Shown in pieces: positions 38,866 to 45,903 of a stretch of DNA of 64,000 nucleotides. The stretch covers positions 128,001 through 192,000 of the forward strand of contig CAWAOD010000009.1 of NCBI GenBank assembly GCA_963783575.1, given 5' to 3'. The position numbers and the translations under genes were made by a program. Source of the stretch: an uncultured Spirochaetota bacterium. GTDB taxonomy: Bacteria; Spirochaetota; Brevinematia; Brevinematales; JAOACQ01. The notes under the pieces are model-generated. The model made no database searches. It saw only the letters and a list, made by a program, of their open reading frames with translations, and was not told the origin of the DNA. Positions within the stretch are counted from its first letter, which is position 1. Every line of letters starts with the position of its first letter.

Positions 38866-39680
38866 ATGATTAGAATTACATTGTTAATTATTCTATTTAA
38901 CTTATTCTCGTCATTTACTTTTACACAATCTGTAGAAAAAGGATTTTTCTTATACCAGGGATTGGCCGGATTGGATTATCCAATGGGAATTCAAAGTGAT
39001 ACGGCTGTTTATTACCGTATTCCCACAGGTGAAAGTGAAGAGATGCTTTTTAAGACCGCTCATACGGATATTGGAATTGAAAATTGGCTTACCCCAACGG
39101 ATAATTTTCTGGCCCTATATTGCAAACTTGAGCCCATCGCATTCTTTGATCTTGTGTTCCGTAGCGGTTATGACGGTATTTTTAATTTTACCGGCGTGGG
39201 TTTTCAGCCGGTAAGCGGGCCCGGCGAGCCTTATGATTCGGAATCGGCTGTGAAACTGCCCATGAAAACCGGTCCGGATTATGGGGAATGATTACCCCGG
39301 AATTAAAAATCAAATTCTGGAATATCATTCTCACACATTCGTTTACAATTAACTATTTCAATATGTTTTATCCCGGATATTTTATTGAATTCCATACCGA
39401 TTCAATCCTTCATGGTGAAGATATTAATCTGCAAAACGATACATACGGATTTTACGAATTTAACCGGCAATTACTATTGGGTTTTAATCACTATTATCTC
39501 TATGTACCAAGCACCGGATATGCCTCGCAGAGACTTTCCGCAGCGGCGGTCTTTAAACCCGGGCTGAGTTGTTTTTATGATGCTTTCCTTGCTGCTCTTG
39601 CCGGCAGTTATCTTCAGGATCACAGCTACACCGGCAAGTTTTTCCTGCTTATTCAGGGTGGCTTTACTATAAAGTTATAA
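38866..39680 (+). CDS. Hypothetical exported protein, split by a frameshift near 39260-39290
   Basis: Two overlapping ORFs, signal peptide, beta-strand-like C-terminus. Confidence 0.55.
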
Positions 39681-39701
39681 AGGAGGTGGTATGATAAAAA
39701 A

Positions 39702-39866
39702 GGTTGAAAAATAAAAGAGCCCGCATCAAAATAGATGAGGGCTCTGAATAGGACAAAGATCGAATCAATTTGTGGGGATAAACCCCGTTAGGAGTATGAT
39801 CGAATCCTTGTCCGAACCACCATTTTGAGGATAAACCTCGTATTGGAGTATGGTAATTTTTCAACC
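39702..39866 (+). ncRNA. Candidate IS110 bridge RNA
   Basis: Closed by an 11-bp stem ggttgaaaaat/atttttcaacc; 5' hairpin plus two similar modules, each with a GGATAAACC hairpin and GGAGTATG. Confidence 0.65.
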
Positions 39867-39922: not shown

Positions 39923-40933
39923 ATGGACGCAAAAAAGTGGATCGGAATTGATATCCACAAAAAGCAAATTACCGTTTGCATTATTATAGAAAACGGTAAA
40001 AAATCAATCAAGCAATATGAGAGAAATGAAAAAGAATTAGCGGAATTTGAGAAAGAGATTGACAAAGAAACGATAATCGGGATTGAATCGACAAACTGGA
40101 CATGGGATTTAATCAAACGGTTAAAAGATAAAGTAAAAGATGCGGTTATTTTCAATACTATTGATTTAAAAAGATTAATGGATCGATTTAAAAAAACAGA
40201 CAAGGAAGATGCAGAAAGAATGGCGATTATATTACAAAGATTTGAAAAAGAAGAGCTAAGTACCTGTCAGATAAGAAGCGACGAAGACGCTGAAATAAGA
40301 GGATTATTATCTGTGAGGGAAGAAATGGTTAGCAATAAGAAAAGCTATAAGACAAAGATAATAGCGATGATGGAGTATTGGGGGATTAAAACCGGAGACA
40401 AAATGTTCAACAATTTTGAAAAGAACACAAACTGGGTCAAAGAACAAAACATACCTGAGAGTATAAAGAGAGCCGTAATCCAGATGTATGTTATGTTAGA
40501 AAATCTCAAAGAAGACATTAAGGTACTGGATAAAGAAACAGAAGCCTTAAGCATAAAGAGACCCGGATATAATGAGATTAAAGAATTAACGGGAATAGGC
40601 ACAACAACCGGCGTATACATCATAACGAAGGTAGGCAATATAGACCGCTTTAGTACCTCAAAAAAATTTGTATCATATATGGGATTAGCACCAAGAGTTA
40701 GTGAAAGTGACGGAAAAGGAACAAATGGTCAAATTACACGAAAAGTAGACGGTGCTTTTTTAAGGGTCATAGTACAAGCAGCCTGGGTTCGTGTGAGATA
40801 TGATAAAGAAATGAAATCGTTTTATGAGAATATTCGAACAAGAAGAGGAAAACAAAAAGCGATCATTGCAGTAGCGAGAAAAATTATTGTGGAAGTATAT
40901 TATAAGTTGTTGAATCTGAAATCTGAGGCTTGA
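39923..40933 (+). CDS. IS110 transposase/recombinase
   Basis: RuvC-like DEDD motifs GIDIHK, GIEST, KTDKEDA; C-terminal GIG...YMGLAPRVSESDG, AVARK. Confidence 0.95.
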   Translation: MDAKKWIGIDIHKKQITVCIIIENGKKSIKQYERNEKELAEFEKEIDKETIIGIESTNWTWDLIKRLKDKVKDAVIFNTIDLKRLMDRFKKTDKEDAERMAIILQRFEKEELSTCQIRSDEDAEIRGLLSVREEMVSNKKSYKTKIIAMMEYWGIKTGDKMFNNFEKNTNWVKEQNIPESIKRAVIQMYVMLENLKEDIKVLDKETEALSIKRPGYNEIKELTGIGTTTGVYIITKVGNIDRFSTSKKFVSYMGLAPRVSESDGKGTNGQITRKVDGAFLRVIVQAAWVRVRYDKEMKSFYENIRTRRGKQKAIIAVARKIIVEVYYKLLNLKSEA

Positions 40934-40972
40934 ATCTTAAAATAAAACTTGACAAATTACATAGGAGAAATT

Positions 40973-42058
40973 ATGATGCAAATATTAAAAAATATAATCC
41001 TGATGGGAATTATCTTTGTATTCCCGATTGCCGGTTACAATATAACAAATAATCAAGGAGAGAACAAAATGTACAATTTGAATCCGGAAATGGAGAAAAT
41101 GCTTTTTTACGGCACTCTTGCGCCAAGTTCTCACAATGCTCAAATGTGGAAAGTCCGGATAACAGGGCCTTTGGAAATAGAGGTTTTTCTAGATACAAAC
41201 CGGCTTCTGCCACAGGTTGATCCAGATAATAGAGAAGCATTCATCTCAATCGGCACATTCCTTGAGAATCTCGGCGAAGCCGCATTTTCCCTGGGTTATC
41301 GCGCAAATATCGATATTCAAGAGCATCCGATGGATGAACGTGCTGCTATCATTCAATTCATTAAAGATGATGCGCTTCCTCCTGACAATTCTTATCTTTC
41401 TAATATTTTGTCCCGCCATACAATCCGGACAGCATATTTGACAAATGAATTGACAATTTCCGAAATAAATTATTTTTTGTCTTCAGACCAATATCATGTT
41501 TTTTACTATTCGTTTAGTTCAGATGAGGGAAAGTACCTTTCACAAAACCTGATTAAAGCCAACCGTCAGCAGATGGCCGATGACAATAAAGAGCTTGAAC
41601 TTTCTGAATGGTTCCGTTTTTCACAAAAGGATATTGATCAGAAAAAAGATGGTATGGTACTGGATATTCAGGGTATCGGCGGCTGGATTGCAGGAATATT
41701 CTTCAATAAAGATACCGTTATGTCAAAGATCTTCCGCGAACAGGGTGTTGAAATGGTTAAAAATGCCGTTGGCAATTGCAGCGGGTATTTGGTTGTCACG
41801 GCTGAAGGCACTTCACCGAAAGACTGGATTTCAGCCGGTATGCTTTCCGAAAAGATTTGGCTGATGGCGGCATCGAAAAAGATCGCAATTCAACCCATGA
41901 GCCAATTGCTTGAAGAAATCCCCTGGAAGCTTGAAATTATGCAGAAAATCGGCTTAAATAAACCGATAGCCATGCTCTTCAGGGTTGGTTATATAAAGGT
42001 TTATGGAAAAGGTTTAACCAGACGACGCGATTTGAAGGATTTTATTATTAATCAGTAA
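40973..42058 (+). CDS. Acg-type nitroreductase-family protein
   Basis: LAPSSHNAQMW, DPDNRE..ISIG, RHT.R, QPMSQ. Confidence 0.85.
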   Translation: MMQILKNIILMGIIFVFPIAGYNITNNQGENKMYNLNPEMEKMLFYGTLAPSSHNAQMWKVRITGPLEIEVFLDTNRLLPQVDPDNREAFISIGTFLENLGEAAFSLGYRANIDIQEHPMDERAAIIQFIKDDALPPDNSYLSNILSRHTIRTAYLTNELTISEINYFLSSDQYHVFYYSFSSDEGKYLSQNLIKANRQQMADDNKELELSEWFRFSQKDIDQKKDGMVLDIQGIGGWIAGIFFNKDTVMSKIFREQGVEMVKNAVGNCSGYLVVTAEGTSPKDWISAGMLSEKIWLMAASKKIAIQPMSQLLEEIPWKLEIMQKIGLNKPIAMLFRVGYIKVYGKGLTRRRDLKDFIINQ

Positions 42059-42144
42059 TTCTATCTAAGCCAATTTTTATCTCAAACTAAGTCTTGAACT
42101 CAATACTCAAGGTATAACTCAACCGAAGAAATTTCTAATTATTA

Positions 42145-42202
42145 TTGACAAACTGTCATCTTATATGTTATACTTATTATAGACTGACAGTCGGTCTATA
42201 AT
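42145..42202 (+). promoter_or_regulatory. Promoter plus TetR operator
   Basis: TTGACA 42145, TATACT 42169; palindrome attatagactgacagtcggtctataat. Confidence 0.75.
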
Positions 42203-42219
42203 ATAAGAGGTAAACTGAA

Positions 42220-42885
42220 TTGACAAGAATATTAAAGGAACCGGAAGAAAGACGGACGGAAATCCTTGATTCAGCCGAGGAATTATTCCAGATTAAAGGT
42301 TATGAAGCAGCCACAACGGGCGATATTATAAAAAAAGCCGGAATCGCACGCGGCACTTTATATTATTATTTCAAATCCAAAGACGAGATTATGGATGCGG
42401 TGATTGAAAGAAGAATTGAACGGCAGATTCAGAATTTGAAGACAATTATCAACGGACAAAAAATAAACGCTCTTGAAAAGATCAAAAAAGTCCTTTATCA
42501 AAACAGTATAATAAACAATGAAAACGAGGAAATGCTGGATTATCTCCACCAGCCAGAAAACAGCGCCATGCATCAAAAAACACTTGTTGCAGCTGTCAGA
42601 AATTCCGCGCCGGTTCTTGCGGAGATAATAAACCAGGGGAATTCCGAAAAAATATTTCAAGCCGGGTATCCGCTTGAACTGGCTGAGTTTTTACTGGCGG
42701 GGATGAATTTTCTGTTCGATCCTTCAATTTTTCAATGGAGCCGGGAAGAATACATAAAAAGAATGCACACTCTTGCGGATATTCTGGAAAAGGTTCTGGG
42801 GGCGGAAAAAGGCAGCTTTGATTTTATGAAATCATTTGCTGAAAAAGAAGGCTCACAATACAGGAATAAAAAGGAAAGGGACTAA
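42220..42885 (+). CDS. TetR family regulator
   Basis: GIARGTLYYYFKSKDE; paralog of 33601. Confidence 0.93.
   Translation: MTRILKEPEERRTEILDSAEELFQIKGYEAATTGDIIKKAGIARGTLYYYFKSKDEIMDAVIERRIERQIQNLKTIINGQKINALEKIKKVLYQNSIINNENEEMLDYLHQPENSAMHQKTLVAAVRNSAPVLAEIINQGNSEKIFQAGYPLELAEFLLAGMNFLFDPSIFQWSREEYIKRMHTLADILEKVLGAEKGSFDFMKSFAEKEGSQYRNKKERD

Positions 42886-43887: not shown

Positions 43888-45903
<2,016 letters not shown>

What the first reader, a model, noticed from the sequence alone, without database searches (positions are those of the whole stretch)
39702..39866. Candidate bridge RNA with two duplicated GGAG-containing loop modules
Seen: just after the left-end -10 box, an 11-bp stem encloses a gagccc/gggctc hairpin and two similar modules, tgtggGGATAAACCccgttaGGAGTATGat (39771-39800) and ttgaGGATAAACCtcgtattGGAGTATGgt (39825-39854). 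Both contain the GGAG of the insertion core. The accacc at 39816 is complementary to the left-end ggtggt, and aattt before module 1 is complementary to aaatt beside the core. Known: IS110 recombinases use a bridge RNA with target-binding and donor-binding loops. Inference: this is a bridge RNA programmed for a Shine-Dalgarno core; which loop binds target and which binds donor is tentative.
Basis: partly seen in the sequence, partly recalled or inferred. Interest (0 to 1): 0.8.

Follow-up and report, generated by a model that had tools for sequence, protein, structure and literature searches.

The report
Mirror-order bridge RNA targeting ribosome sites
This is the predicted guide RNA of a small RNA-guided jumping gene that lands on the ribosome-binding sites of host genes and leaves a replacement site behind; the system is of a known kind, but its guides read the two DNA strands in the opposite order to the best-studied example.

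Summary
The structure is real (fold z = -7.9). It is the left-end RNA of a 1,282-bp IS110-family element (recombinase 39923-40933). The genome holds six copies. All six sit at an AGGAG 5-7 nt before an ATG, in the host gene's direction, and the element's right end supplies a replacement GGAG. Joining the ends makes TTGACA-17-TATGAT just upstream of the RNA.

Relatives settle the loop roles. Across 9 lineages, loop 1 matches its own target flanks (p = 0.0001 left, 0.0002 right) and loop 2 its own donor end (p = 0.003). The IS621 arrangement and swapped loops show no signal.

The core is 2 bp (AG, i.e. CT on the other strand); GGAG only looks duplicated. The guide order is inverted relative to IS621: the top-strand complement comes first, as reported for IS1111 elements, although the RNA lies upstream of the gene. 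The accacc match overlaps a conserved stem.

No RNA data or activity test was possible, and in the window alone the guides are too short to assign. Verdict: a new variant of a known system.

The parts
39675..39683 (+). Left target flank (host DNA ending in ..aagg, the first half of the host Shine-Dalgarno)
   Evidence: Flank differs among the six copies up to here
39684..39685 (+). Core dinucleotide AG at the left junction (CT on the bottom strand)
   Evidence: AG at both junctions in 6 of 6 copies; 2-bp register fixed by empty sites and CG/TG cores in relatives
39686..39695 (+). Left end: right donor arm gtgg plus -10 box TATGAT
   Evidence: Identical from 39687 on in six copies; sequence
39702..39866 (+). 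Predicted bridge RNA body, closed by an 11-bp stem (39702-39712 with 39856-39866)
   Evidence: Fold z = -7.87; models R1/R2 find homologous structure upstream of related recombinases
39716..39744 (+). 5' scaffold hairpin
   Evidence: Fold; a hairpin of other sequence at the same place in relatives
39751..39813 (+). Target-binding loop (module 1). 5' strand aattt 39767-39771 complements the top strand right of the core; 3' strand ttaggAG 39788-39794 copies the left flank plus core (pairs with the bottom strand)
   Evidence: Own-versus-other permutation; window sites; helix covariation
39816..39854 (+). Donor-binding loop (module 2). 5' strand ccattt 39820-39825 complements core plus gtgg with two G-U wobbles; 3' strand tattggAG 39841-39848 copies the right end cataggAG with one wobble and one mismatch
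   Evidence: register from the relatives' ccat/atgg and ccgtct/agatgg
39923..40933 (+). IS110-family DEDD recombinase, 336 aa; D10, E55, D93, D96 and S262 invariant
   Evidence: Pfam; alignment of 28 homologues; profile hits to IS621 and ISCro4 structures
40949..40965 (+). Right end: -35 box TTGACA (40949-40954) and left donor arm ..catagg
40966..40967 (+). Core AG at the right junction; with the preceding gg it forms the replacement GGAG Shine-Dalgarno (40964-40967)
40968..42058 (+). Right target flank aaatt and the downstream host gene (nitroreductase family, ATG at 40973)

Best explanation
The region encodes the bispecific bridge RNA of an IS110-family element. Shown from sequence: the element ends, the six insertion sites, the fold and the guide-to-DNA matches across relatives. 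Inferred from IS621: joining of the ends (a circle) brings TTGACA and TATGAT 17 bp apart and drives the RNA. The recombinase binds loop 1 with the target and loop 2 with the joined ends, and exchanges strands at a 2-bp AG/CT core. In both loops the 5' strand pairs with the top strand right of the core and the 3' strand with the bottom strand left of it. This is the IS621 geometry with the recombination sites turned round relative to the element. Loop 1 spells (t)taggAG plus a weak A/T-rich right half, so the element lands in Shine-Dalgarno sites. Its right end rebuilds GGAG at unchanged spacing to the start codon, which should keep the host gene translatable and may be why such insertions persist (inference).
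For: Recombinase identity. Six copies, all at AGGAG + ATG at 5-7 nt with ORFs of 151-474 aa; background 744 of 6,536 AGGAG sites genome-wide and 598 of 1,728 outside long ORFs (0.346^6 = 0.0017). Structure kept with changes on both sides at 4 of 29 pairs in 7 close rows and 18 of 29 in 15 model-fitted rows. Permutation, 9 lineages, Watson-Crick only: loop-1 3' strand vs left junction 7.76 vs 4.49 nt (p = 0.0001, n = 9); loop-1 5' strand vs right target 4.34 vs 2.91 (p = 0.0002, n = 8); loop-2 3' strand vs donor left arm 6.62 vs 5.02 (p = 0.003, n = 8); loop-2 5' strand vs donor right arm 4.22 vs 3.82 (p = 0.036, n = 9). All four IS621-polarity and all four swapped-loop tests gave p > 0.08 in that set. 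[quoted passage not shown] Core: 89 empty-site matches for the AG-core reconstruction vs 0 for a no-core one in 4 genomes carrying ISLin1-like copies. Loop-2 core letters equal the right-junction core in 15 of 15 elements with a right end, including CG (L040) and TG (L041).
Against: No RNA run was found, so expression is untested. In the window alone the assignment is ambiguous: loop 1 matches the donor left arm better (6 nt) than loop 2 does (4 nt), and aatttgt in loop 1 is also the exact complement of acaaatt in the right end. The loop-2 5' guide is weak: p = 0.18 over all 17 elements without wobble, and p = 0.16 over 9 lineages with wobble. One IS621-polarity test reached p = 0.048 in the 17-element set. 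The hypothesis was formed on the same elements that were then permuted, and kin are not independent. The two 5'-most bases of the window's left target guide add nothing beyond AGG (3.5 vs 3.41-3.57 of 5). The right guide is only modestly above other Shine-Dalgarno sites (p = 0.02 Watson-Crick, 0.05 with wobble). No empty allele of a window-genome site was found, and no circle junction was seen.
Confidence: 0.85

Rival explanations
1. The RNA is a bridge RNA, but in this element target choice is mostly a half-match: either loop pairs with ggAG plus the left arm, and the restriction to true ribosome-binding sites comes from A/T-rich context and purifying selection rather than a full two-sided guide.
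For: Both loops carry ggAG. Right-target matches are 2-3/5 in five of six copies. 6,551 AGGAG words exist in the genome. Half-match insertion is reported for IS621 (10.64898/2026.08.31.748434, passages).
Against: The right-guide match exceeds all AGGAG sites (3.17 vs 1.69, p = 0.002) and Shine-Dalgarno sites (2.09, p = 0.02). Relatives show 7-8 nt right-guide matches (L040, L041, L032 group). This rival is partly compatible with the best explanation.
Confidence: 0.3
2. Loop roles are swapped in this element: module 1 binds the donor and module 2 the target.
For: In the window, module 1's taggAG matches the right end for 6 nt against 4 for module 2, and its aatttgt complements acaaatt in the right end.
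Against: All swapped-loop tests are non-significant across relatives. The acaaatt stretch is not kept in the close relative L057, whose loop is identical. Module 2's 5' strand complements the left-end arm, and its 3' strand tracks donor cores GACG, GATG and ATGGGAG in relatives.
Confidence: 0.06
3. The structure is a cis-acting 5' leader that regulates transposase translation (for example GGAG decoys or sequestration), not a guide.
For: It lies on the same transcript as the gene, ending about 55 nt before its start, and contains Shine-Dalgarno-like words. Leader regulation is reported for ISPpu9 (PMC8450116, search listing only).
Against: In relatives the same loop positions change to non-Shine-Dalgarno words that match each element's own flanks. 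The GGAG words lie more than 70 nt from the start codon.
Confidence: 0.04

Closest known systems
IS621 / ISCro4 (IS622) bridge recombinases (PMC11208160, parts 1-2, section 12 and passages read; PMC13626964 and 10.1101/2025.05.14.653916, passages)
   Same: RNA in the long left end; 5' hairpin, then target loop, then donor loop; promoter formed across the joined ends; 2-bp core that reads CT on one strand; ATA/TAT short inverted repeat round the donor site; DEDD + Ser recombinase.
   Different: Guide order is inverted (IS621: 5' side pairs with the bottom strand, confirmed on locus L147). An extra 11-bp stem closes the whole RNA. The target is a ribosome-binding site rather than REP DNA. The protein is only remotely related (profile E about 1e-14 to 1e-15) and lies outside the IS621/ISEc32/ISEc20/ISBth13 clade.
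IS1111-group seekRNA elements (ISEc11, ISKpn4, ISPa11, ISPst6; PMC11187229, section 6 and passages read)
   Same: [quoted passage not shown]
   Different: The long non-coding region is upstream, not downstream. The inverted repeat is only 4 bp here (cata/tatg; 10 bp in the G025 relative). The protein is outside the IS5708-containing clade.
ISLin1 (Leptospira; locus L137)
   Same: Nearest named element by tblastn (27-28% identity). Same RNA architecture (model R2, E = 4e-7), same guide order, AG core and ..ataggAG right end. Listed as IS110 family in the seekRNA source data.
   Different: Targets a dispersed repeat (89 empty matches in 4 genomes), not ribosome-binding sites. Not grouped with the window clade at high support. 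No description of its guide RNA was found in a search for its name (11 papers, listing only).
IS900 / IS901 / IS902 of mycobacteria
   Same: IS110-family elements that insert at translation starts. Insertion between ribosome-binding site and start codon is recalled from memory; PMC8141618 (2 passages) shows only that the antisense hed ORF lacks its own RBS and is scored by an upstream RBS.
   Different: Recalled to insert in the opposite orientation to the host gene and to belong to the long-protein IS110 subgroup. Not compared by sequence here.

Membership tests
IS110 family (broad, bridge recombinases) | DEDD RuvC-like domain plus C-terminal Tnp domain with conserved serine | tested here: met
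   PF01548 and PF02371 above cut-off; D10, E55, D93, D96, S262 invariant in 28 homologues
IS110 family (broad, bridge recombinases) | Promoter reconstituted across the joined ends | tested here: met
   TTGACA 40949-54 + 17 bp + TATGAT 39690-95 on joining at the core (sequence). In silico only; no circle observed
IS110 family (broad, bridge recombinases) | Structured non-coding RNA with two internal loops, conserved in structure | tested here: met
IS110 family (broad, bridge recombinases) | Loops complementary to, and covarying with, target and donor | tested here: met
   Three of four guides significant in all four settings; donor-loop 5' guide borderline
IS110 family (broad, bridge recombinases) | RNA expressed, bound by the recombinase and needed for recombination | not testable with these tools
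   No RNA holder listed; needs bench work
IS110 group sensu IS621/ISEc21 | Long non-coding region upstream of the gene | tested here: met
   Left end 237 bp, right end 34 bp
IS110 group sensu IS621/ISEc21 | Bottom-strand guide 5' of top-strand guide | tested here: not met
   Inverted order supported, IS621 order not
IS110 group sensu IS621/ISEc21 | Recombinase clusters with IS621, IS110-like or ISBth13-like proteins | tested here: not met
   Outside the 98/95 clade of ISEc20, ISBth13, IS621, ISEc32 in a 57-row tree; ISEc21 and IS110 itself were not available
IS1111 group | Top-strand complement precedes bottom-strand match | tested here: met
   criterion from PMC11187229
IS1111 group | RNA downstream of the gene | tested here: not met
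   Right end is 34 bp; the RNA is upstream
IS1111 group | Sub-terminal inverted repeats of 7-17 bp | tested here: not met
   4 bp (cata/tatg) in the window; 10 bp in relative G025
IS1111 group | Recombinase in the tight IS1111 clade | tested here: not met
   Outside the 100/100 clade holding IS5708 and outside the ISEc45/ISSso6 clade; deep position unresolved

The most novel reading that the evidence does not exclude
A deep-branching lineage of bridge recombinases (the window clade, ISLin1 and other spirochaete elements, possibly wider) combines a left-end, two-loop bridge RNA with IS1111-type guide order. That breaks the published link between RNA position and guide order, and suggests the recombination site can flip relative to the element. 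Within it, a branch was programmed to ribosome-binding sites, in some members reading the start codon too: in G249 the loop-1 5' strand predicts T-ATG at spacer 5, and 5 of 6 copies have it. Against that last part: the sister G220 has spacer 5 in only 2 of 12 copies, and the window RNA has lost the CAT. The probability covers the inverted order being real and not yet described.
Probability: 0.45. Interest if true: 0.55.

Novelty: new variant of a known kind. Interest (0 to 1): 0.4.

Why it matters
Bridge RNAs have been known since 2024, so the mechanism is not new. Two features would interest specialists. First, the inverted guide order in an element whose RNA lies upstream: the published IS110/IS1111 split on this point rests on few tested elements, and tools that assume IS621 order would mis-call targets and design wrong guides for this lineage. 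It also offers a simple two-loop scaffold, with natural AG, CG and TG cores, for testing how strand polarity is set. Second, targeting of ribosome-binding sites with a rebuilt site is a way of finding thousands of tolerable landing places with a very short guide, and it puts the element's -35 box and ends directly in front of host genes. Other unchecked notes of this scan report the same habit in other genomes, so it is recurrent rather than unique.

Tried and rejected
- 'No core at all', my first reading of the Leptospira-type junctions: a mis-registration. The no-core empty-site pattern has 0 matches against 89 for the AG core.
- 4-bp GGAG core: cannot be excluded from the six window sites alone, but relatives share only 2 homologous letters at both junctions.
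- Start-codon reading by the window RNA: its loop lacks CAT; T before ATG in 6 of 6 has a 58.6% background (p = 0.04, post hoc).
- The pairing scores used coordinates off by one; they were discarded and redone. Only its core table is used.
- Rfam: nothing. Viral contigs: nothing.
- Sequencing runs: no RNA holder listed. Contigs of four DNA runs gave no circle or empty-site joint; one gave a further right junction followed by ATG at 6 nt; X1 shares the interruption seen in copy C12 and may not be independent.
- No empty allele of the window site in 35 relatives.
- ISEc11 and ISEc21 records were not in the collections.
- Models R1/R2 did not convincingly pick up the 358-aa and 400-aa metagenomic groups or ISHvo9. 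Their donor-loop 3' strands look like sense copies of their right ends by eye, but they were left out of the permutation.
- Dropped before the permutation: L084 and L140 (weak model hits, not upstream RNAs) and L155 (no junctions found). One of six window copies (C12, interrupted) was not in it.
- Literature: 10 searches listed no paper on Shine-Dalgarno-programmed bridge RNAs or on inverted order with an upstream RNA; most hits were seen as listings only. Not visible: figures (including Extended Data Fig. 10c of PMC11208160), the cut part of its supplementary tables (Table 5), and the supplements of bioRxiv 10.64898/2026.10.21.760802 (86 bridge RNA models). Any of these may already show this order.

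Full report
Observation. 39702-39866 folds as one closed unit: an 11-bp outer stem, a 5' hairpin, and two arms that each have an internal loop capped by a G-rich hairpin. The energy is -63.7 kcal/mol, z = -7.87, and 0 of 200 shuffles fold as well. Rfam has no match at E <= 1. The modules share the capping hairpin and GGAGTATG but agree at only 17 of 30 positions ungapped.

The element. The ORF 39923-40933 (336 aa) carries PF01548 and PF02371. D10, E55, D93, D96 and S262 are invariant in 28 homologues, and a profile reaches the IS621 and ISCro4 structures. A relative in the same family is titled an uncultured Brevinematales bacterium. The genome holds six copies at about 99% identity: four of 1,282 bp, one of 1,271 bp, and one split by a 2.5-kb insert with two IS21-like ORFs, named from their look. 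Two copies have an open reading frame; the others show stops or frameshifts. The RNA region is identical in 5 of 6 copies. Joining the ends gives TTGACA-17-TATGAT just upstream of the fold, as described for IS110 circles (PMC11208160).

Targets. All six copies lie at AGGAG with an ATG 5-7 nt downstream opening ORFs of 361, 178, 209, 228, 474 and 151 aa, in the host gene's direction. In this genome 744 of 6,536 AGGAG words meet that description, and 598 of 1,728 outside long ORFs; six of six has p = 0.0017 on the latter. Selection against insertions in genes is not excluded. The right end ends in ..cataggAG, so the gene keeps a GGAG at the old spacing. Relatives do the same: 8 of 8 examined copies in G025 (10 right ends exist). 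12 of 12 in G220 have ATG at 5-7 nt, two with only 3- and 11-aa frames from that ATG. In G249, 5 of 6 have it at 5 nt and one at 8 nt.

Structure in relatives. In seven close elements (45-87% protein identity) my 29-pair structure holds in 96.5% of cells, with changes on both sides at 4 pairs. In 15 model-fitted rows it holds in 94.3% with 18 such pairs (fitted rows lean towards the structure). The homologous donor register is ccat against gtgg/atgg. Models built from these rows find the RNA upstream of recombinases down to about 27% identity, including the ISLin1-family locus L137, and not at IS621, ISEc32, IS5708 or ISBth13.

Which loop does what. I cut the strands on either side of each capping hairpin from the model alignment and located junctions with family-level anchors. 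Each RNA was then scored against its own and against other elements' junctions, with 10,000 permutations. In 9 lineages, Watson-Crick only, loop 1's 3' strand copies the left junction (7.76 vs 4.49 nt, p = 0.0001) and its 5' strand complements the right target (4.34 vs 2.91, p = 0.0002). Loop 2's 3' strand copies the right end (6.62 vs 5.02, p = 0.003) and its 5' strand weakly complements the left end (4.22 vs 3.82, p = 0.036; not significant in two of four settings). IS621-order and swapped-loop pairings gave no signal there; one IS621-order test reached 0.048 among all 17 elements. Of seven further distinct model hits, five (L191, L193, L194, L195 with its second copy L199, L196) show by eye a loop-1 3' match to the left junction; two have no recognisable left end, and none showed a right end. 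Limits: the idea came from these same elements, kin are not independent, and in the window alone loop 1 matches the donor end better than loop 2 (6 vs 4 nt).

Core. The apparent GGAG duplication is a 2-bp AG core plus gg in both left arms. In four genomes with ISLin1-like copies the AG-core reconstruction of the empty target occurs 89 times and a no-core one 0 times. L040 has CG and L041 has TG at both junctions and in both 3' guides. In G025, L035, L040, L041 and the ISLin1-like elements, the two bases after the core in loop 1 equal the first two bases of the left end. That resembles handshake pairing as described for IS621 (PMC13626964); the window RNA does not show it. For the window itself the 2-bp register is inferred by homology.

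How it works. [quoted passage not shown] The simplest mechanism is IS621-type recombination with the sites turned round relative to the element. The IS621 locus fetched here shows the opposite order, as its paper states. The seekRNA paper reports top-strand complement first for four IS1111 elements and the reverse for ISEc21 (PMC11187229). This element has IS1111 order, an upstream RNA, a 4-bp inverted repeat, and a protein outside both reference clades in a 57-row tree whose deep nodes are unresolved. In the window element the effective target word is short: AGG-AG plus a weak right half (3.17 of 5 vs 1.69 at all AGGAG sites, p = 0.002, and 2.09 at Shine-Dalgarno sites, p = 0.02). Half-match insertion and selection may therefore share the work.

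Novelty. Membership of the broad IS110/bridge family is met on all testable features; membership of the IS621-type or IS1111 group is not. Ten literature searches listed no description of Shine-Dalgarno-programmed bridge RNAs or of this order with an upstream RNA, but figures and several supplements were not visible. Insertion of IS900-like elements at translation starts is recalled precedent. Five unchecked notes of this scan describe Shine-Dalgarno-targeting IS110 elements in other genomes, and none was found on reversed order. Verdict: a real, well-supported bridge RNA; a new variant of a known kind; interest 0.4.

Noticed in passing
window 44075-45436 (-): Group II intron reverse transcriptase/maturase, 453 aa (RVT_1 + GIIM).
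   Followed up: no
window 42140-42203: 26-bp imperfect inverted repeat just before a TetR-like gene (42220-42885); operator-like.
   Followed up: no
window 38866-39291 and 39288-39680: Two overlapping ORFs without Pfam hits directly upstream of the element; they look like one split or frameshifted gene.
   Followed up: no
G000:C12:19698-22235: One copy of the element is interrupted by a 2.5-kb element with 521- and 255-aa ORFs resembling IS21 istA/istB, flanked by a short aaaagt repeat.
   Followed up: partly
G178, G141, G135, G110 (e.g. G141:C1:2794022-2794540): The ISLin1-like target is a dispersed, often tandem repeat of about 72 bp; 89 empty matches in four genomes.
   Followed up: partly
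L155, L197, L201 (G090): Three bridge-RNA-like model hits without a recognisable left end; L155 has no ORF over 150 aa right after it. Possibly remnants or orphan guides.
   Followed up: no
L088, L093, L113, L116, L119, L121, L130: A 358-aa group whose upstream RNA carries gtgtgtgaatg, also found at the left junction, and ataggtg, also found at the right end in most; suggests the same inverted order with a TG core.
   Followed up: partly
L047 (G141:C1:1407898-1411659): An ISLin1-like copy whose RNA region looks disrupted by a duplicated insert.
   Followed up: no
window 40949-40977: At this copy's right junction the element's TTGACA and the host's TATGAT again form an 11/12 sigma-70-like promoter with 17-bp spacing, overlapping the host start codon.
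   Followed up: no
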